Positions 24,430 to 51,431 of a stretch of DNA of 64,000 nt are shown here, in pieces (within the stretch, counting starts at the first letter, position 1; every line of letters begins with the position of its first letter). The stretch lies in NCBI RefSeq assembly GCF_003018235.1, contig NZ_CP027438.1, one strand, 5' to 3'. Below the pieces are notes generated by a model. The model had not been told where the DNA came from. It saw nothing but the letters and a program-made list of their open reading frames with translations, and made no database searches. The position numbers and the translations under genes are program-made. The stretch is from Escherichia coli. GTDB lineage: Bacteria > Pseudomonadota > Gammaproteobacteria > Enterobacterales > Enterobacteriaceae.

Positions 24430-24726
24430 TTGCCGGAATTATACAGCCCAGATTCACTTGCCATGTTTCAGAATAGCTTATAAGCCGCACTTTTACCGAT
24501 ACTCAGCAACAAATCAGGTCTGGATCCACTTCAGCCGGAAACCGGATCTGCGCGGCAGAAAAGACGCAAATAATATGATAATAAACAATACACATAAAAT
24601 CATATCAGATATGATTTTCATCATTAATTATGAAACCATATCTGATATTATTAATAATCAATAACACACAAATCATTCAGGATATGATTTTTACCTGTCA
24701 GAACATTATCAGATGGAGCGTGCAGG

Positions 24727-24987
24727 ATGGATCAGGAAATGACGTTTTCACTCAGCTATGAACAACTGACCCGGTTTGCGGAAAAACGCATCCGGGAATG
24801 CAATCTGGACAGCCAGGGCGTAACTTATCTCTGCGAGTCAGCCAAAGCCGGAGCCGTGCTGATCTTCTGGCATGAACTGGCCATAAATGGCTATACCTCA
24901 ATGAATGCCATAAAGAGACAGGAGATCATTGACGCCGACCATCAGCGCCTCAGAAAGCTCATCTGGCCGGAGGATGACTGGAAATGA
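24727..24987 (+). CDS. Hypothetical protein (86 aa)
   Basis: ORF translationally coupled (ATGA) to the downstream 196-aa ORF; GC-rich module. Confidence 0.3.
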   Translation: MDQEMTFSLSYEQLTRFAEKRIRECNLDSQGVTYLCESAKAGAVLIFWHELAINGYTSMNAIKRQEIIDADHQRLRKLIWPEDDWK

Positions 24988-25574
24988 CTCAGAGCCGCCG
25001 ACCGTCGCCACTGCAGCGGAGAGTGCTGATTGTGCTGGCTGCCCTTGATGAAAAACGGCCAGGCCCCGTGCTGACGCGGGACATAGAGCGGGTGCTGGAG
25101 CGAAGCGGGGAAGCCCCGGTCTACGGGCCAAACCTGCGCGCCTCCTGCCGTCGTCTGGAGGATGCCGGCTGGCTGCGTACCCTGCGCGCTCCGAACCTGC
25201 AGCTGGCAGTGGAGCTGACGGACGCCGGCCGTTCCGTGGCACAGCCTCTGCTGCTGGCAGAACAGGACCGCCTCTGGGCAGAACAGCGTGCGGCAGAAGT
25301 CGTCGTACTGCCGCTGGTCCCGGCAGCAGGTCTGCCCGCAGACGGCACTTCTGCCACTGATCTGGCGGTGCATCTGAACGGCATAACGTATCAGGCCTGC
25401 CGTGGGGATTTTGTGGTGCGTCTCGACGGCAGCACCTGTCTGCAGTTATGGAATAAAGAAGGCAGAGTGGTACGCCGGGAGGGCGATCCGCTGGAAGTGG
25501 CGCAGTGGCTGCAGGCCTGTCACGATGCAGGAATGGAGGTTCGCGTACAGATAAATGAAAGTACCGCTCCGTAA
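24984..25574 (+). CDS. Hypothetical protein with putative winged-helix N-terminus (196 aa)
   Basis: Balanced composition on plus strand (RRVLIVLAALDEK...LTRDIERVLER); the antisense ORF is Pro/Arg-rich junk. Confidence 0.35.
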   Translation: MTQSRRPSPLQRRVLIVLAALDEKRPGPVLTRDIERVLERSGEAPVYGPNLRASCRRLEDAGWLRTLRAPNLQLAVELTDAGRSVAQPLLLAEQDRLWAEQRAAEVVVLPLVPAAGLPADGTSATDLAVHLNGITYQACRGDFVVRLDGSTCLQLWNKEGRVVRREGDPLEVAQWLQACHDAGMEVRVQINESTAP

Positions 25575-25593
25575 GAACACGCCTGTGCACGGT

Positions 25594-25941
25594 TTACACA
25601 TCATCCCATGGTGGCAGCCGGTTAACTTTCCTGCGCCACCAGTGGAAAGAGGCCATGCACAGTCCGAACAAAAAACCACCCGTGATACTTATAATAATGG
25701 CCTCACCTGCCACCATTCCTGACGTCCCCCAGTAGATAAACCACATTGCACATCCCCAGGAAATGCCCCATAAGCTCCCCATCAACAGCGTGACCTGCCA
25801 GAACGGCATAAAGGGTAATGGCGGAAGCCGGATACCCAGCCGCCATAGAATACGCAGAAGAGGAGGGGCATAATTGCTCCGCCACATCTTTTTGCTGTCC
25901 ATCAGGGCAATGGCCCGGGCTTTTTTCTGCTCAAAGGTCAC
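25594..25941 (-). CDS. Hypothetical membrane protein (115 aa, two TM segments)
   Basis: Two hydrophobic, Trp/Gly-rich segments; no recognisable family. Confidence 0.3.
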   Translation of the reverse strand: MTFEQKKARAIALMDSKKMWRSNYAPPLLRILWRLGIRLPPLPFMPFWQVTLLMGSLWGISWGCAMWFIYWGTSGMVAGEAIIISITGGFLFGLCMASFHWWRRKVNRLPPWDDV

Positions 25942-26069
25942 AGGAGCACCTCCGTTCCATGATGTAAACGTGACACAGATTATTGTTATTGATTATTATT
26001 ATCATGCTGTGATTATGTTGTCATGCACCGGTACACTGACAAAAGAAAGGGAGAACAGGAGGCTGGCTG

Positions 26070-26405
26070 ATGAACAGGAAATATTATCTTAATAATATGT
26101 GGTGGGGATGGTTTATGGGTGGGTATACTCTGTATATGTCATGAGATTATGAGTTTAAATACAGATTGCTGTTCTGGTGTATTTCTCTCTGCGGAATGGT
26201 TTTGTATCCGGTTGCCAGATGGTGTATTGAAAATACTGCCCTGAAATTTACCCGGCCTCATTTCTGGAATAGCGGTTTTTTTGCTGATACTCCCGGAAAA
26301 ATGGGATTACTTGCGGTTTATACGGGTACTGTTTTCATATTATCTCTTCCGTTAACTCTGATATATATTCTTTCTGTTATCATAAAAAGGCTGTCTGTAA
26401 GATAG
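26070..26405 (+). pseudogene. imm: Colicin Ia/Ib immunity-like gene with in-frame TGA at codon 25
   Basis: ATG 26070 has a strong SD (caGGAGGctggctgATG); in-frame TGA at 26142-26144; frame continues into the hydrophobic ORF 26166-26405; convergent with the colicin gene. Confidence 0.55.
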
Positions 26406-26426
26406 ACAGCCTGTCTTATATATTAT

Positions 26427-28306
26427 TTAAATGCCCCAGAACTTATTCGCTTTTTCCACAAGCGTTTCATCAATCAGAGCACCGGTGACAGCCATCAGTA
26501 AACCATACCCGATAATGCCTAAAGCGCTTCCGGTAAGAATACTGAAGACCAGAGCAACAAGAGCCGTTGCGGCATTACCTGCTATGATGGTTTCTGTTTT
26601 AACAAAAAAAGGACGCCAGTTATCTGTCCGGGCAGCCTTACCAAACTCAGTGATCCAGTCAGCAAAATTTGTAATTTTTCCTGCATATCCCAGTCCGCGA
26701 CTGAACCTGTTCAGATTAGACGATATATCAGACAGCTTCACAGACTCAAGGGCTGCGGCAATCGCTGCACGATCTTTTGCATTAATTTTTTTGTTAATGT
26801 CAGCCCGGTACTTTTCATACGTTTTTAATGCCTCTTCAACATTACGTATTTTCTTCCCTTTAGCCTGCCCGGCCATCTCTCTGGCTAACTGCTCAGCTTT
26901 TGCACCATATTTTTCTGAAACTGATTTCAGGAACTCTGTTGTGAAATTAATTGCGTCTTTCGTTGCCTTCAGTTCATCCTGTTTTCTTTTCTCTTCCGCT
27001 ATCTTCTGATTGATGCCGGCAAGCTGGTTACGGATATTCTCTTTTTCCTTCAACAGGGCATTAAGAGCGTCATTTGCATTCTTTTGCTCATTTGTTCTGG
27101 CACTGAGGTTATTTCTCGCCGAATTTACCGCAGATTCAGCAGAGGTGATTTTATTTCTGGCATCAAGCAATCTTTGCCGTAACTTATCCCATTCAGCAAC
27201 TTCAGCATTATAAATTTTCTTGTCACCTTCCACATCCTCTGTCACCACCGGATTCCGGTCATTCAGAATATTGCGTTATAGTCCAGACCGGAATGGGTCA
27301 GAAGATAATTCAGGTTTGCACGGTTATCAATGACCGCGCTGGTTGTGATTTTTATCGTACCGGCAAATCTCGGATCACCACTCACAACAATAGAATGATT
27401 TGTTGATGAACGCCCCGGGAAATTTTCAGGGGAAACTATCGTTTTGCCGTCAGGCGTGTTTTTCTGTTGCGTCAGCTGTTGTTCAGCTCTGGTTAATGCA
27501 TTACGGGCCGTGTTAAGCGATTCCGTCACCGAACTGAGTTTATTCCGGGCCTCTGAAATGGCCCTGTCATTCCGTGTCTGCTGCCCGAGCAGACGGGCCT
27601 GTTGTGCATCAAGAACGGCAAGGGCTGCCCCGCCATTTTTTTCCAACTCTGACAACCGCGTGTCCAGAATACCTTTTCTGCGCTCGTATTCAGCAAGCAT
27701 ATCAGCGGCCTTCTTGTCTGCGTTCTGCGCATCCTTCTGCCGTTTTTCAGCCTGTTCGATTAACGACCTGGCCTCGCGGGGAGATATACGAAGAGAATCA
27801 GCATCAGCAAACAGCATCCGGCTCTCTGTATGCAGGCGGAGGGCATCATATCCGGCGATTTCAGTACGGAATCCGTATTCTCTCAGCTCTGCCTGCAGGA
27901 GTCTGAACTCCTGTCGTGTAATATCAGCGGTATCTGCGTTTCCGGCACGGAGTGTTTTCAGTGTGTTTTCATCTTTTTCCCTTGCAGCAATCGCCGCAGA
28001 GAGGCGTTTTCCGGCTTCAGTACGTTTATTCTCATTCTCTTTCTGCTGCGCGCTGAGCGTGTTTTTGTACGCTGTGATTTCCTTGTCCCTTTTTTCGATA
28101 TCACTCCGGGTTGGGGAATCATCGACCCACTCGTTTCCACCCCAGATGGTTTTGTTCCCGAAGGAATTCCATGCAGGCGGGGTACCATGAAAGACATCGA
28201 CACGTGGAGGGTTTACATAAATATCAACGGCCATAATTTCATGGCCATCTGAATCATACCCCAGCGATTCTGCACCGGGATTTGTAATACGTACAGGGTC
28301 AGACAT
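26427..28306 (-). pseudogene. cia: Colicin Ia/Ib-type pore-forming colicin, frameshifted between the central and pore-forming domains
   Basis: ORF 27263-28306 gives the N-terminal and central domains; ORF 26427-27248 in another frame gives the channel domain ending ...LVEKANKFWGI; break lies at TATAACGCAATATTCTGA. Confidence 0.75.
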
Positions 28307-28347
28307 TCGGTATCTCCTTCATCCTCTGAGGAAAACAAATGAATTAA

Positions 28348-28378
28348 CTGCTTGCATATATGGATACATATACAGTAT
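28348..28378 (-). promoter_or_regulatory. Putative tandem LexA (SOS) boxes of the colicin promoter
   Basis: Minus-strand tACTGTATATGTATCCATATATGCAAGCAGtt, i.e. CTGT...ACAG-like overlapping boxes about 40 bp upstream of the colicin start. Confidence 0.45.
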
Positions 28379-28688
28379 TAATTTATTAAGGAGAAAATGG
28401 CATGTCAAGACTTAATAATAGTGATTATCATTAACATGAGGTGGTGTTATACCGTTCAGAAAGCCTGCTGACGCTGTGGCAGCATCACAGTCTGAGTATT
28501 CTCTGGTGCAATACAAAATTGACTCTTTGCAAAATCGCACTCAACACGTTTTATCTGTGCGTATAGCTTGCGGCATGACAAGACATAGATTTGATTACTG
28601 TCACAAAAGTAAGTAAAAACTTTATCATCTATCACACCGAATATTTTAAGAATTAGACGAGACGCAAAAACAGAAGATAGTGCACTAA

Positions 28689-28958
28689 TTATTGCAAGGA
28701 GATTTTTATATGTGTTATCTGATTTTTTATTTTTTCACTAATATATACAAATAAAAACAAGGCAAAAAATATAATTGTATACATGCATGTTATTACATAT
28801 GACTTATCTGTTGGAGGAGGTGGTAAAAACTGGAGAGGGGATACAAGTAATACAAGGAAAAAGAAAGTTAAAGTTTTCTTTTCCTTGTTATCGTATTTTC
28901 CCAATAGAAACAAATATGACAATATAATTAAAAGCATGGATGTATATATGCTAATCAT
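28689..28958 (-). CDS. Hypothetical small membrane protein (89 aa)
   Basis: Two hydrophobic helices separated by a KYDNKEKK loop; very AT-rich. Confidence 0.3.
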   Translation of the reverse strand: MISIYTSMLLIILSYLFLLGKYDNKEKKTLTFFFLVLLVSPLQFLPPPPTDKSYVITCMYTIIFFALFLFVYISEKIKNQITHIKISLQ

Positions 28959-29158
28959 TGTATGCTCCTTTAATGACAGGATGATTGGCCGTTTTTACCT
29001 GTAGCTTTTATTGCTCCTGATGCTGAAGAACTTAAAACAGTGCTTGCGATAGCTCCTTTTACAGTATTACCAAAAAATACATTGTCTGTCATGCCGCCAA
29101 CAAAGCCGGCTCCTGCACTTAATCCGGCACCGCTCCAGCTAATAATTTTTCGGTTCAA

Positions 29159-29563
29159 TCACCGGAAGAAATTATCAACGTAATCATCCCATGCATGCCC
29201 CTGAACAGACCACTCACGATTAACCGGAGGCGGGAATCCACTTCGACAGTAGCCGTTCTTCCCCTCAAAATCAAATACACCATGTGGATATCCGTTTATC
29301 AGCAGAACACACTTCAGGCAGTCCTCAGACCAGCCAATCTTCACATCAGAGGGGATGTGAGCATCTGAAATATCTTCAACGTTATATATATGCACAGCAT
29401 CCCTGACAGGGTTACCTTCAGCGGACTCATCAAGTGCATAGAAATATCCGGTATTCCCGTCATCTTCAAATACAGCGGCCAACATTCCATCAGGAGCTAA
29501 ACTTTTTATCGCCATAGCCTCACCAACTATGAGTTGAGTCTGTGCCGTCACGAGTATTGTCAT
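29159..29563 (-). CDS. Hypothetical protein (134 aa) ending at a TGA; the frame continues into a 62-codon Gly/Ala/Ser-rich segment
   Basis: Stop TGA (29159-29161) directly abuts TTG-initiated ORF 28970-29158 in the same frame (GAGLSAGAGFVGG glycine-zipper-like). Confidence 0.3.
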   Translation of the reverse strand: MTILVTAQTQLIVGEAMAIKSLAPDGMLAAVFEDDGNTGYFYALDESAEGNPVRDAVHIYNVEDISDAHIPSDVKIGWSEDCLKCVLLINGYPHGVFDFEGKNGYCRSGFPPPVNREWSVQGHAWDDYVDNFFR

Positions 29564-32164: not shown

Positions 32165-32262
32165 CTCCCCGCATAGAGCAACAGCTTCTATGCAGTTTCT
32201 TGTTAGCCCCGGTAATCTTCTTCGTCGCCAAACATAGAAAGATTATCGGGGTTTTCGCTTTT
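32165..32262 (+). ncRNA. copA: CopA-like antisense RNA of the RepFIIA replicon (approximate bounds)
   Basis: Antisense to the repA1 leader; plus-strand hairpin CCCCGGTAATCTTC...GAAGATTATCGGGG followed by TTTTCGCTTTTCT. Confidence 0.45.
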
Positions 32263-32385
32263 CTGGCTCCTGTAAATCCACATCAGAACCAGTTCCCTGC
32301 CACCTTACGGCGTGGCCAGCCACAAAATTCCTTAAACGATCAGCAATCTATCACTCACGCCTGAGATAAGCAAGAATGTGAATAT

Positions 32386-32643
32386 TTACGAAGTCGCTCT
32401 GCGTTTCAGCTCTGATTCAATCAGTTTTTCAAGCATCTGCGCCTGGGTAATACCTTCCTCATCCGCCAGTTCACTCAGCCTGTCTTTTAACCGGGCCTGG
32501 ATAACCGCATGAAAAGCCTTATGAGTGTTGCTTCTGCGAGCCAGAGAAGCTCTTTGCCTCTCTCTGGCCGGAACAGGGTTACCTTTCCGGTATGCACGCT
32601 TGGTGCCTGATGAGGAAGTCACTGCATTTTCTATCTGCGACAT
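32386..32643 (-). CDS. copB: RepFIIA copy-number repressor RepA2/CopB
   Basis: 85-aa basic protein with MSQ.ENAVTSS N-terminus and EGITQAQ motif; position upstream of repA1. Confidence 0.7.
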
Positions 32644-32926
32644 CTCGCCTCCTCAATACTCGAACAGAGATCGTTTCGCGGAGGATACTACAGTTTTTTG
32701 AAATCAGCGACTTGAAAGTTGTAACGATGCTCAGTGTTGGCGCATAAATCATGTCTGATTACGATCGTTTAATGTGATTTTGATTATGAAATGACTGAAA
32801 AGCAGGAAATGCCTTAACCTGGATGCCGGCCCCGGGCGGGACCGGCTGTTTCTGGCATGTCGGGTGTTTGCCCCTGAAATACCTCACACTTCCGGAAAGC
32901 GGGGACTTCCGTCCCCGCCCGGCAGC

Positions 32927-33076
32927 TTACTTCCGTGCTTCGTAGGCCAGAGTTACCTGCACCACTGTATTTCCCCTGTGAATACTCAGCTCACATAACC
33001 GTTCCCTGAATATCAGTGAAAAACACAACACCGTGGCGCACACGGCAAGCAACCCGATAAGGGCATACTTCGTCAT
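32927..33076 (-). CDS. srnB: Hok/Gef-family membrane toxin (SrnB/PndA-like), 49 aa
   Basis: Manual translation MTKYALIGLLAVCATVLCFSLIFRERLCELSIHRGNTVVQVTLAYEARK; absent from the ORF track because it is under 60 aa. Confidence 0.8.
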   Translation of the reverse strand: MTKYALIGLLAVCATVLCFSLIFRERLCELSIHRGNTVVQVTLAYEARK

Positions 33077-33345
33077 AAACTTTGACCTCTCTGCAAGGAA
33101 GAGGCTACAATCAGTAGTGCAACGTACTTCATGCAGACCTCACGAGTTAATGGATTAACGAGTGGGGTCTTCGCATTTCTGGTACCTGCGTCTTGCCTGA
33201 ACCAGAAAGGCTCAGACACCCGCCGCGATAATACCACATTCCCTGTTGCTGACTATTACCCCCATTTACCTGTTTGGTTACAGAAACCTTTGTCATCGTG
33301 CCAGAAAATTAATAGTCAGCACACACAATCTGGCAATAGTTAAAT

Positions 33346-35490
33346 TTAATCAACGCCCCCCTTGTATTTATTATCGCCAGATAATGAAATCTCCTTAACT
33401 CTCCCTCCCTCAATATTTATGATCTTGTCAGTTGCACTAAGTACATCATCTTTATGGCTCACAATAATCTTAGTACAATCAAGAGACAATATTACCTGAT
33501 TAATTTCATATTCTGACTCTGCATCAAGATTACTGGTTGCTTCATCAAGTATTAATAACTTTGGTTTCCTGAATAAAGCTCTGGCTAACAGGATTTTCTG
33601 CTTCTGCCCTGCAGATAAAATATTTCCGGCATCATTGACAGGAGTGAAATACCCCATAGGAAGCCTTTCTATTATATCATGGATGCCAATTTTTTTTGTT
33701 AGTTCCAATAACTCAGGGGAGGGTGTCGAGTCATTGAATGTTATATTATAGATTATTGTTCCATTTAAAAGAATATCACCCTGTAAAACAGTGCCGGACA
33801 CACTTCTGATATCTTCTATTTTATTGTTTTTGTCACCATCTGTAAAGATAATATGACCACCACTCAATTCTACCAACCCCAAAATAGCATAAAGAAGAGA
33901 TGTCTTTCCCCCTCCAGATTTGCCTCTGAGAAGAACTGTCTCCCCAGGGTATATTTTTAGGTTAACGTCAGTTAAAACATTAACTTCTCTGCCATGATAT
34001 TTCATACTCAAATTAACGCACTCAATACCAACTGCTCCATGAGTATCTTTCCCGGATAAAGTGAAAGGTATCTTCTCATAATCTGCATCAGATATATCTG
34101 AAACTCTTGAAATATGTATGCGAATAACACCAAGCTGGATAAAGAAATCAATCATGTTAGTCACCCTTCTGCTGAACTGTTCTGAATATGCAATAAAAGC
34201 GACAAGCATACCAATAGTAAAGGATGAATTAATCACAAACAGTCCGCCAAAGTAAAGTATTGAGATATTTTTTACCGCCGAAAGGAGATTACTTGATGAT
34301 GAGAGCACAATATTTAATAAATCCATTTTTGTCTTTATGTTGATCCCTTCGATAAGGCTATTTTCATAAATACCTGCCGTTGTGTATTCCTGAAAGTAAA
34401 GCTTTATTGTTTGATTGTATTTGATTGACTCAATTAGTGCACTCTGTTGTCGGGCCTTAACTCTTATAGTGCCCAGATTCAGATATTTCAGAGACGAAAA
34501 ATAAAAAACCTTCAGTAAAAAATATAGCAACGATGAAAAGAACACAACAAACGTTAACACAGGGCTATAAGAACACATTATAATGAAGGCCCCTATAGCC
34601 ATAAAGAAATCCAACAAAACTTTTGTTAGCTGAGATATAACCACATTACGGATATATTCGAGAGAATTAACTCTGGATAAGATATCGCCAACACTCCTGG
34701 ATGAAAAATATTTCATTCTTAATGATATTAGACGATTATAAGCATTTGTTGCCCACTGAACGCTTATGTTTGCATTTAACCAAATAATAAGCCAGTCCCT
34801 TGTCGCCAGTATACCAATACTAACAGCATTAAGAAAAAGATAAAATATCACTGCGGTAACCAATAACTGATAGTCATCATTAACAATGACATTATCAATA
34901 ACCAGTTGAGTTATTTGCGGTATCGTAATATTGATAAGTTCAGCTAGAAAAATAAGAATAAACAGGCAGAAAAAAACATTTTTTCCTAAAAAAAACACAC
35001 TGAGAATGTAATTATATATTGTTTTATTTCTTTTCTTGTCCTTTCTTAGCTGGTAAAATATTGAACCGTCATTGTATACTTCTATTCCTACTCCGGTAAA
35101 AGACTCACTGATTTTCTGCAGCGACAAAACCTGAATGCCTTTATCCGGATCATGAACAACATACTTATTTCTCTTTCTTTTTACCAGAACAACAAAATGA
35201 TTCATATTCCAGTGAAGGATGCAAGGTAAACTTAAGCAGTTAAGCTCGTCAATGTTCAGACTGACAGCTCTTGGCATAATCCCCAAAGAACGTAATACTG
35301 ATACGATATCACTTACAGCCCACTCGTTTTTTTTGCTACTTAGTTTATCAAGCACATTCTCCAACAATCCCTCTTTCCCGTAATAACAAGCAAGCATTCT
35401 TATACATGTCAAAGCACAGTCTGAATTTTCATTCTGAAAATAAAAAGGAAATGCTCTTTTCACTTTAAAATTTAACTTATCAATAATCAT
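33346..35490 (-). CDS. Bacteriocin/microcin-type ABC exporter with N-terminal C39 peptidase domain (CvaB/MchF-like)
   Basis: C39 triad candidates (DCALTC, HFVVLVKR, HDP); six-TM domain; Walker A GKSGGGKTSL, signature LSAGQKQK, Walker B LLILDEATS; ATGA overlap with upstream MFP. Confidence 0.85.
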   Translation of the reverse strand: MIIDKLNFKVKRAFPFYFQNENSDCALTCIRMLACYYGKEGLLENVLDKLSSKKNEWAVSDIVSVLRSLGIMPRAVSLNIDELNCLSLPCILHWNMNHFVVLVKRKRNKYVVHDPDKGIQVLSLQKISESFTGVGIEVYNDGSIFYQLRKDKKRNKTIYNYILSVFFLGKNVFFCLFILIFLAELINITIPQITQLVIDNVIVNDDYQLLVTAVIFYLFLNAVSIGILATRDWLIIWLNANISVQWATNAYNRLISLRMKYFSSRSVGDILSRVNSLEYIRNVVISQLTKVLLDFFMAIGAFIIMCSYSPVLTFVVFFSSLLYFLLKVFYFSSLKYLNLGTIRVKARQQSALIESIKYNQTIKLYFQEYTTAGIYENSLIEGINIKTKMDLLNIVLSSSSNLLSAVKNISILYFGGLFVINSSFTIGMLVAFIAYSEQFSRRVTNMIDFFIQLGVIRIHISRVSDISDADYEKIPFTLSGKDTHGAVGIECVNLSMKYHGREVNVLTDVNLKIYPGETVLLRGKSGGGKTSLLYAILGLVELSGGHIIFTDGDKNNKIEDIRSVSGTVLQGDILLNGTIIYNITFNDSTPSPELLELTKKIGIHDIIERLPMGYFTPVNDAGNILSAGQKQKILLARALFRKPKLLILDEATSNLDAESEYEINQVILSLDCTKIIVSHKDDVLSATDKIINIEGGRVKEISLSGDNKYKGGVD

Positions 35491-51038: not shown

Positions 51039-51431
51039 GGGAATTCTCCTCTCACATGCGGCCTCCATCAGGCCGTGCCGCACCTGTAACCGGGCGACCG
51101 CATACGAATGCAGGTGCGGCCCCGAAGCCGCTGCGCGTGGAGGAGGAACGACGAAACGTGACCGGGTGAGGATGCCGGCGACAGCGACACACTTGCATCG
51201 GATGCAGCCCGGTTAACGTGTCGGCACGGCCTGGGTAACCAGGTATTTTGTCCACAGAACAGTGCACAAAATGCTGTGGATAAGCTGGACACAGCACTCC
51301 ACAGCAGGCATACAGCCACACACTCAGAGAATTGAACATTTTTTAGTCACAATAATGGCATTTGACTGTGTGTGGATTCAGTTATTAGAGTACTGTATAT
51401 ACACACAGTAAAAGAAAAGGGAGATGAGAAC

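What the first reader, a model, noticed from the sequence alone, without database searches (positions are those of the whole stretch)
26070..28378. Colicin Ia/Ib locus inactivated twice: frameshift in the colicin and in-frame TGA in the immunity gene
The colicin reading frame breaks between the receptor/translocation part and the channel domain, which is then encoded in another frame. The convergent immunity gene has a strong SD and ATG but an in-frame TGA at codon 25. A LexA-box-like tandem operator still sits upstream of the colicin start. Loss of immunity makes sense only if the toxin is already non-functional, so the order of decay can be inferred.
Basis: partly seen in the sequence, partly recalled or inferred. 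Interest (0 to 1): 0.5.

Follow-up and report, generated by a model that had tools for sequence, protein, structure and literature searches.

The report
Doubly broken colicin Ia locus
This is a decayed copy of a common E. coli toxin/antidote pair (a colicin Ia variant and its immunity gene): both breaks are real, the toxin broke first and the antidote later, and this is ordinary gene decay.

Summary
Both lesions are in the sequence. The colicin gene (minus strand, 28306..26427) has lost one A from the AAA codon for K344 (window 27276-27277). That leaves a 347-aa N-terminal ORF and the pore domain in another frame. The convergent immunity gene (26070..26405) carries TGG->TGA at codon 25 (G->A at 26144).

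Both lesions recur in an independent short-read assembly, so they are not sequencing errors. The exact 347-aa fragment is on 63 public contigs.

The locus is a colicin Ia variant, not Ib. It lies in a 3,985-bp (about 4 kb) module that matches IncI1 plasmids and is now carried on a decayed IncFII plasmid.

Sister contigs with the same flanks all carry the frameshift, and only one sub-lineage carries the TGA. Another sub-lineage has a second frameshift in the colicin instead.

- The break lies inside the receptor-binding domain, not at a domain boundary.
- The promoter has a Fur box plus one good LexA box and a weak overlapping second site, not a clear tandem operator.
- "Only if the toxin is dead" is too strong, because a second immunity copy could also explain the loss.

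RefSeq already flags the frameshifted colicin as a pseudogene. Interest is low.

The parts
28417..28435 (-). Fur-box-like site GTTAATGATAATCACTATT, just upstream of the -35
   Evidence: 16/19 to GATAATGATAATCATTATC. Only 11 sites reach >=14/19 in the whole window, both strands. ColIa/Ib are reported as Fur- and LexA-regulated (PMC3879352). Motif level only.
28380..28408 (-). Colicin promoter: TTGACA, 17 nt, TAAATT
   Evidence: 10/12 consensus match. Identical to the canonical Ia plasmid L004.
28346..28377 (-). LexA operator: box 1 TACTGTATATGTATCCATAT (28377..28358) and an overlapping weak second site ATCCATATATGCAAGCAGTT (28365..28346)
   Evidence: Box 1 is 15/20 and identical in canonical Ia. 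The second site is 11/20 and differs from Ia at 3 central bases. Chance expectation at this stringency is about 0.8 per strand.
27263..28306 (-). Colicin N-terminal ORF, 347 aa plus stop: translocation domain and a truncated receptor-binding domain. SD GAAGGAG at 28320..28314.
   Evidence: Pfam PF11504 Colicin_Ia matches residues 282-344. The exact protein is WP_249926977.1, found on 63 contigs.
27276..27277 (-). Frameshift site: AAA (K344) reduced to AA, a 1-nt deletion
   Evidence: Alignment to intact L003 and L004. Restoring one A gives a clean 626-aa ORF. Shared by L001, L002, L005, L006, L008, L009 and L011.
26427..27275 (-). Colicin C-terminal part (codons 345-626) in the shifted frame: rest of the R domain, coiled coil and pore-forming domain
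   Evidence: PF01024 Colicin pore domain, 174.7 bits. 540 bits to colicin Ia 1CII against 189 bits to colicin Ib 8IOM.
26388..26412 (.). Bidirectional hairpin terminator between the convergent genes
   Evidence: Found on both strands, with 11- and 9-pair stems. Consensus match only.
26070..26405 (+). Immunity gene (Ia-variant iia, 111 codons), with SD AGGAGG at 26057-26062
   Evidence: With the TGA read as Trp the protein is identical to the intact L001 product and differs from the canonical Ia immunity protein at 10 of 111 residues. PF03526 scores 28.1 bits against a cut-off of 25.
26142..26144 (+). Nonsense codon W25* (TGG->TGA, G->A at 26144)
   Evidence: Present in L006/L010 (SRR4299825). 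Absent in L001, L003, L004, L005, L008, L009 and L011.
24534..28518 (.). 3,985-bp module shared with IncI1 plasmids: two hypothetical genes, DUF6404, immunity gene, colicin gene and promoter
   Evidence: blastn against L001, L003 and L004. Only 3 differences from L001 between about 24680 and 28518. The flanks are IncFII plasmid DNA.

Best explanation
This is a pseudogenised colicin Ia-variant operon on a decayed, non-conjugative IncFII/FIB plasmid. The roughly 4-kb colicin module matches DNA otherwise found on IncI1 plasmids.

First, a 1-nt deletion in codon K344 cut the colicin inside its receptor-binding domain. The translocation part and partial receptor part (347 aa) are no longer joined to the pore domain, so no importable toxin can be made.

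The immunity gene then persisted as an orphan immunity gene in most descendants. In the sub-lineage that includes this window it later acquired W25* (TGG->TGA). That truncates the protein within its first, aromatic-rich N-terminal segment, before both clearly hydrophobic stretches. A sister sub-lineage instead acquired a second frameshift in the colicin.

Shown: both lesions, their recurrence in independent assemblies, their distribution among sister contigs, and the Ia-type assignment.

Inferred: loss of killing activity and of immunity; continued SOS/iron-inducible transcription of the fragments, because the promoter, LexA box and SD are identical to canonical Ia; and that the decay is neutral.
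For: - Lesions pinpointed by alignment to intact relatives.
- Domain mapping from PDB and Pfam.
- The exact truncated 347-aa protein is on 63 contigs. The 272-aa C-terminal fragment is on 140.
- Contig L006 (SRR4299825) reproduces both lesions and differs from the window at 3 other sites. The tool grouped 20 further contigs with it.
- L005 and L009 have the frameshift with an intact TGG. L008 and L011 have the frameshift, a second frameshift (loss of one T in the plus-strand T run ending at 27636) and an intact TGG. All have the same IncFII flanks.
- RefSeq marks the colicin as 'frameshifted' in CP076710 and CP076711.
- The plasmid as a whole is decayed: truncated tra genes and many IS remnants.
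- Broken colicin genes and orphan immunity genes are reported as common (PMC6723558; PMC12546727).
Against: - No functional data exist for this allele.
- UGA at a Trp codon can be misread by tRNA-Trp at a low level, which would regenerate the wild-type protein. Immunity may therefore not be strictly zero.
- The C-terminal fragment could be made at a low level by re-initiation at the GTG at 27248, 15 nt after the N-fragment stop.
- The 20 contigs grouped with L006 were not individually checked for TGA.
- The IncI1 copy in CP076710 comes from a strain whose second plasmid assembly is full of homopolymer indels. The frameshift call in that record could have been influenced by polishing with mixed reads.
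Confidence: 0.88

Rival explanations
1. One or both lesions are sequencing or assembly errors and the locus is intact in the cell.
For: The closest RefSeq record of the same plasmid (CP076711, L002) is full of 1-3-nt deletions, mostly in homopolymer runs, that are absent from the window. This shows that such errors occur in this plasmid family.
Against: The window itself lacks those errors. The frameshift is in a run of only 3 A. The TGA is a substitution. Both lesions recur in Logan contigs assembled from other sequencing runs. The exact truncated protein is on 63 contigs.
Confidence: 0.02
2. The genes stay functional through recoding: a programmed -1 frameshift rejoins the colicin, and/or the UGA is read through as Trp or Sec.
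For: The TGA replaces TGG, so near-cognate reading by tRNA-Trp would restore the native residue (established knowledge of UGA leakiness in E. coli; not tested here).
Against: The 5-codon overlap between the two frames (TAT AAC GCA ATA TTC TGA) contains no X_XXY_YYZ slippery heptamer (direct reading of the sequence). The 70 nt around and after the UGA have no unusual structure (z = -0.09), and Rfam finds nothing in the region. Intact relatives need no recoding. A sister lineage adds a second frameshift, as expected for decay.
Confidence: 0.03
3. The immunity gene could be lost because the host carries a second, intact copy on a co-resident IncI1 plasmid. Redundancy, not the toxin's death, removed selection.
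For: Strain CFIAFB20140388 carries both this IncFII plasmid and an IncI1 plasmid with the same module and an intact immunity gene.
Against: The Logan contig with TGA (15,389 bp) runs straight through the module into IncFII flanks on both sides. A second, nearly identical 3.8-kb copy would normally break a short-read assembly at the module ends; this is an inference. It also does not change the order of events, because every copy seen has the frameshift.
Confidence: 0.12
4. The 347-aa N-terminal fragment is kept because it is useful, for example as an SOS-induced Cir-binding decoy.
For: The promoter, LexA box, SD and the 347-codon ORF are intact. The fragment is widespread, on 63 contigs.
Against: The receptor-binding domain is truncated: Pfam positions 64-72 are lost, as are residues 345-385 of the 2HDI construct. 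Sub-lineage L008/L011 breaks the fragment again into 259 + 88 aa. The wide distribution is explained by clonal spread of one plasmid.
Confidence: 0.03

Closest known systems
Colicin Ia operon (cia/iia) of IncI1 and ColV-type plasmids; structure PDB 1CII
   Same: - Same gene order and convergent orientation.
- Identical -35, -10, LexA box 1 and SD.
- The restored colicin differs from the canonical Ia of L004 at 11 of 626 residues.
- The immunity protein differs from canonical Ia immunity at 10 of 111 residues.

   Different: - The colicin is split at codon 344 and the immunity gene is stopped at codon 25.
- This is a variant allele. Its differences from canonical Ia cluster in pore-domain residues 545-567 and 615, in the immunity gene (7.4% of nucleotides) and in the 70 bp upstream of it (21%).
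- It is carried on an IncFII plasmid.
Intact form of the same variant (CP148367 pZ1323HEC0300-2; WP_174557964.1 / WP_174557965.1; also ELD0539730.1)
   Same: It has the same variant pore-domain and immunity residues. ELD0539730.1 (P0029) differs from the restored window colicin at only 4 residues.
   Different: Both genes are intact there.
Orphan immunity genes beside degraded colicin genes (PMC12546727); truncated cia, cba and cma in survey isolates (PMC6723558)
   Same: Sister contigs L005, L008, L009 and L011 are exactly this state: a dead toxin next to an intact immunity gene.
   Different: The window has gone one step further and lost the immunity gene as well.
Colicin Ib (cib/iib)
   Same: Same architecture, and the same Cir/TonB uptake and Fur+LexA control according to PMC3879352.
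   Different: The pore domain scores only 189 bits to Ib (8IOM) against 540 bits to Ia. Ib immunity is reported as about 22% identical to iia (PMC6723558). Here the immunity protein differs from canonical Ia immunity at only 10 of 111 residues.

Membership tests
Colicin Ia (group B pore-forming colicin) | T, R and pore domains in one polypeptide of about 626 aa | tested here: not met
   All three parts are present and close to Ia, but they are split over two frames at codon 344. It descends from the family and is not a functional member.
Colicin Ia (group B pore-forming colicin) | Pore domain of Ia type rather than Ib type | tested here: met
   540.3 bits over 271 residues to 1CII, with few substitutions, against 188.7 bits to colicin Ib 8IOM.
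Colicin Ia (group B pore-forming colicin) | Central Cir-binding R domain (PF11504; 2HDI construct, residues 282-385) | tested here: inconclusive
   The sequence is present, but the frameshift cuts it. PF11504 matches only profile positions 1-63 of 72 in the N fragment.
Colicin Ia (group B pore-forming colicin) | Promoter repressed by LexA and Fur | not testable with these tools
   The motifs are present and the core is identical to canonical Ia: LexA box 15/20, Fur box 16/19. Binding and regulation were not tested.
Colicin Ia (group B pore-forming colicin) | Killing of Cir+ cells | not testable with these tools
   Needs an induction and overlay assay.
E1-type pore-former immunity protein (PF03526; Ia immunity, iia) | Convergent gene of about 111 codons immediately 3' of the colicin, matching the family profile | tested here: met
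   Position and orientation are as in L004. With the TGA read as Trp the protein scores 28.1 bits against a cut-off of 25 and differs from canonical Ia immunity at 10 of 111 residues.
E1-type pore-former immunity protein (PF03526; Ia immunity, iia) | Uninterrupted ORF | tested here: not met
   TGA at codon 25. The first in-frame restart candidates are TTG at codon 33 and ATG at codon 43, which would drop the aromatic-rich N-terminal segment (residues 9-25).
Colicin Ib | Ib-type pore domain and Ib immunity gene | tested here: not met
   PMC6723558 reports about 22% identity between the Ia and Ib immunity proteins.
Programmed recoding site | Slippery heptamer with a stimulator, or a SECIS/readthrough element | tested here: not met
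   No X_XXY_YYZ in the overlap. Fold z-score is -0.09. No Rfam hit in 26000-28500.

The most novel reading that the evidence does not exclude
The locus may belong to a widespread, unnamed Ia-like colicin/immunity type. Its differences from canonical Ia cluster in pore-domain residues 545-567 and 615 and in 10 of 111 immunity residues, which is the classic pattern of a shifted immunity specificity.

If cross-immunity with canonical Ia is incomplete, this plasmid family would be a natural, sampled time series for a distinct colicin type: toxin loss, then orphan immunity, then immunity loss. Residual immunity might survive through tRNA-Trp misreading of the UGA that replaced a Trp codon.
Probability: 0.15. 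Interest if true: 0.4.

Novelty: already known. Interest (0 to 1): 0.15.

Why it matters
It matters little on its own. It is a clean, sequence-documented example of how a bacteriocin operon decays. The toxin gene breaks first. The immunity gene lingers as an orphan in most descendants and is lost in one branch. A sister branch simply adds more damage to the toxin gene.

This bears on the 'toxin loss versus immunity gain' question raised for orphan immunity genes (PMC12546727), but only as a single anecdote.

There is a practical point. Genome screens that score 'colicin Ia present' by nucleotide similarity would wrongly count this plasmid family as both colicinogenic and immune.

Tried and rejected
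- NCBIfam gave no family for the immunity protein and only a spurious sub-threshold SMC hit for the restored colicin.
- The 20-mer LexA consensus at <=3 mismatches missed the colicin operator and found only the impC box at 51391. At <=5 mismatches the colicin box appears, but about 0.8 sites per strand are expected by chance. The motif alone is therefore not evidence.
- A check for a SECIS or readthrough structure after the UGA was negative. Rfam found nothing in the region.
- Literature searches for this specific allele or for a named Ia variant found nothing specific. Jeziorowski & Gordon 2007 (PMC2045219) is not held.
- The 69-aa protein P0042, which looked like a gene call from the TGA allele, turned out to be a different allele with an F->L change.
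- The 79-aa restart ORF is not in the protein collection. TGA carriers therefore could not be counted by protein look-up.
- I considered and rejected Ib membership, sequencing artefact, programmed frameshifting and a selected decoy fragment (see the rival explanations).

Full report
**What is there**

On the minus strand, an ORF runs from the ATG at 28306 to a stop at 27263. It encodes 347 aa beginning MSDPVRITNPGAESLGYDSDGHEIMAVDIYVNPP... A second frame then carries ...RNILNDRNPVVTEDVEGDKKIYNAEV... down to the stop at 26427. On the plus strand, AGGAGG (26057-26062) and the ATG at 26070 open a 111-codon frame ending at 26405. That frame reads MNRKYYLNNMWWGWFMGGYTLYMS*DYEFKYRLLFW..., with TGA at 26142-26144.

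**Pinpointing the lesions**

A megablast of 26000-28450 finds the locus on about 2,400 plasmids. I aligned it to four of them:
- L004: a canonical colicin Ia plasmid, CP054413.
- L003: an intact copy of the closest variant, CP148367.
- L001 and L002: the two plasmids of E. coli O158:H23 CFIAFB20140388, CP076710 and CP076711.

The colicin break is a single missing base: plus-strand TTT->TT after 27275, which is AAA->AA in codon K344. Re-inserting one A restores a 626-aa ORF. The immunity stop is a single G->A at 26144 that turns TGG (W25) into TGA. All seven relatives compared have TGG.

**Which colicin, and where the break falls**

The restored protein matches colicin Ia (1CII) over residues 23-624. 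The C-terminal fragment scores 540 bits to Ia and 189 bits to the colicin Ib pore domain (8IOM). The immunity protein differs from canonical Ia immunity at 10 of 111 residues. Ia and Ib immunity proteins are reported to share about 22% identity (PMC6723558). The locus is therefore Ia-type, not 'Ia/Ib'.

The R-domain construct crystallised with Cir (2HDI) aligns to residues 281-385. Pfam PF11504 matches residues 282-344 of the N fragment, covering only profile positions 1-63 of 72. The pore domain PF01024 starts about 86 residues into the C fragment. The frameshift therefore lies inside the receptor-binding domain, roughly 100 codons before the pore domain, not at a domain junction.

**Regulatory region**

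Upstream of the colicin, on the minus strand, are:
- a Fur-box-like site, 28435..28417 (16/19);
- TTGACA, 17 nt, TAAATT, at 28408..28380;
- a LexA box TACTGTATATGTATCCATAT, 28377..28358 (15/20);
- an overlapping weaker site, 28365..28346 (11/20);
- GAAGGAG, 28320..28314.

The -35, -10, LexA box 1 and SD are identical to the canonical Ia plasmid. [quoted passage not shown] 'Tandem LexA operator' is therefore only weakly supported. The motif alone is also not beyond chance at this stringency. A hairpin at 26388-26412 sits between the convergent genes.

**Real or artefact?**

The window is an IncFII/FIB plasmid nearly identical to CP076711. That RefSeq record carries dozens of 1-3-nt deletions, mostly in homopolymer runs, that the window lacks. 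The window is the cleaner sequence.

The exact 347-aa fragment is WP_249926977.1, on 63 contigs. The 272-aa C-terminal fragment is WP_225932702.1, on 140 contigs. Logan assemblies of other sequencing runs reproduce the frameshift within the same IncFII flanks. Contig SRR4299825_228 (L006/L010) also has the TGA. It differs from the window at three positions elsewhere, so it is an independent assembly. The tool grouped 20 further contigs with it; I did not verify those individually. Sequencing error is effectively excluded.

**Order of events**

Across the 3,985-bp module, the IncFII-context contigs differ at only four sites:

| Site | State | Carried by |
|---|---|---|
| 26144 | A (TGA) | window, L006/L010 |
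| 26144 | G (TGG) | L005, L008, L009, L011 |
| 27340 | A | L009 (also L001, L002) |
| T run ending at 27636 | loss of one T: a second colicin frameshift, giving 259 + 88 aa | L008, L011 |
| 28356 | G | L008, L011 |

Every copy has the K344 frameshift. Parsimony therefore places the frameshift first. Independent secondary lesions followed in different branches: W25* in the window's branch and a second colicin frameshift in another. Immunity stayed intact in the remaining contigs.

Immunity also protects against foreign colicin. In strain CFIAFB20140388 the same module, with an intact immunity gene, is also present on an IncI1 plasmid, so redundancy could relax selection as well. The TGA-bearing short-read contig runs unbroken through the module into unique flanks. 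That argues, by inference, against a second near-identical copy in that isolate.

**Consequences (inferred)**

The 347-aa fragment lacks part of the R domain and the entire pore domain. The pore-domain fragment has no SD-led start and could arise only by weak re-initiation at the GTG at 27248. It would lack the domains needed for Cir/TonB-dependent uptake. No functional colicin is therefore expected.

The immunity protein has an aromatic-rich N-terminal segment (residues 9-25) and two clearly hydrophobic stretches, at about 31-53 and 77-107. A stop at codon 25 removes both of those stretches. Restarts at L33 or M43 would lack the N-terminal segment.

Recoding is unlikely. The 5-codon frame overlap has no slippery heptamer, there is no structure after the UGA and there is no Rfam hit. 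Low-level tRNA-Trp misreading of the UGA would regenerate the native protein and cannot be excluded.

**Context**

The module (24534-28518) is almost identical to the IncI1 plasmid copy in CP076710, with 3 differences across about 3.84 kb. It also carries DUF6404 and two hypothetical genes. The host plasmid is heavily decayed, with truncated tra genes and many IS remnants.

Broken colicin genes and orphan immunity genes are commonly reported (PMC6723558; PMC12546727). RefSeq already annotates this colicin as 'frameshifted'.

**Verdict**

The biology is ordinary and novelty is low.

One residual point of interest: this is an Ia variant whose differences from canonical Ia cluster in the pore domain (residues 545-567 and 615) and in the immunity gene. 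That pattern could reflect a shifted immunity specificity. I did not test it.

Noticed in passing
window 33346-37724, minus strand: An intact low-GC export cluster. A 191-aa ORF (37724..37149) begins MRKLTFNECNCIYGG|G, which looks like a double-glycine leader. It is followed by a 427-aa ORF (36770..35487) whose counterpart in CP076711 is annotated as a HlyD-family/biotin-lipoyl adaptor, and by a C39-peptidase ABC transporter (35490..33346). The 191-aa protein has no Pfam family. It may be an uncharacterised large double-glycine bacteriocin on the same plasmid as the dead colicin.
   Followed up: partly
window 26070-26405 and 26427-26710 compared with L004: The locus is a distinct Ia variant. 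The immunity protein differs from canonical Ia at 10 of 111 residues. The pore domain differs at F545I, S547N, L548F, V559A, E562D, L567F and S615T. Nucleotide divergence peaks in the immunity gene (7.4%) and in the 70 bp upstream of it (21%), against 0.9-1.5% in the rest of the colicin. The variant immunity protein is on at least 1000 contigs. This may reflect a shifted immunity specificity.
   Followed up: partly
L008 and L011 (SRR20985359, ERR13987471), corresponding to window 27630-27636: A sister sub-lineage carries a second colicin frameshift: loss of one T in the plus-strand T run ending at 27636. It splits the N part into 259 + 88 aa while the immunity gene stays intact.
   Followed up: yes
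window 51391-51410 and 51432 onwards: This is the best LexA box in the window (TACTGTATATACACACAGTA, 2 mismatches). It sits 22 nt upstream of an ATG that opens an ORF matching the 'impC protein' annotated in CP076711. It appears to be a remnant of the SOS-regulated impCAB operon.
   Followed up: partly
L002/L007/L012 (NZ_CP076711.1) compared with the window: The RefSeq record of this plasmid carries many 1-3-nt deletions, mostly in homopolymer runs, relative to the window and to short-read contigs. Many of its 'frameshifted' pseudogene flags are probably assembly errors. The part of the window holding the type IV pilus genes (window 1-22852) is also inverted relative to that record.
   Followed up: partly
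window 1-~12000 (by homology to CP076711 30909-40597): Part of a type IVb pilus operon. The CP076711 annotation lists, in order, major pilin, TcpQ-like protein, secretin, GspE-type ATPase, GspF-like protein, second ATPase, prepilin peptidase and lytic transglycosylase. This order resembles the EPEC bundle-forming pilus (bfp) cluster, which suggests an EAF-like virulence plasmid. The resemblance is from the annotation and from memory only.
   Followed up: no
window 28689-29563, minus strand: Immediately beyond the colicin promoter lie a DUF2251 gene (29563..29159), a 62-aa Gly/Ala/Ser-rich ORF (29158..28970, TTG start) and an 89-aa very hydrophobic low-GC ORF (28958..28689). The two small ORFs have no significant Pfam match.
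   Followed up: partly
window 32173-33221 and 44744-44853: Standard IncF RNA elements are present: CopA, sok and FinP/traJ 5' UTR. There are also isrC-like, isrN-like and AS-pc02 matches.
   Followed up: no
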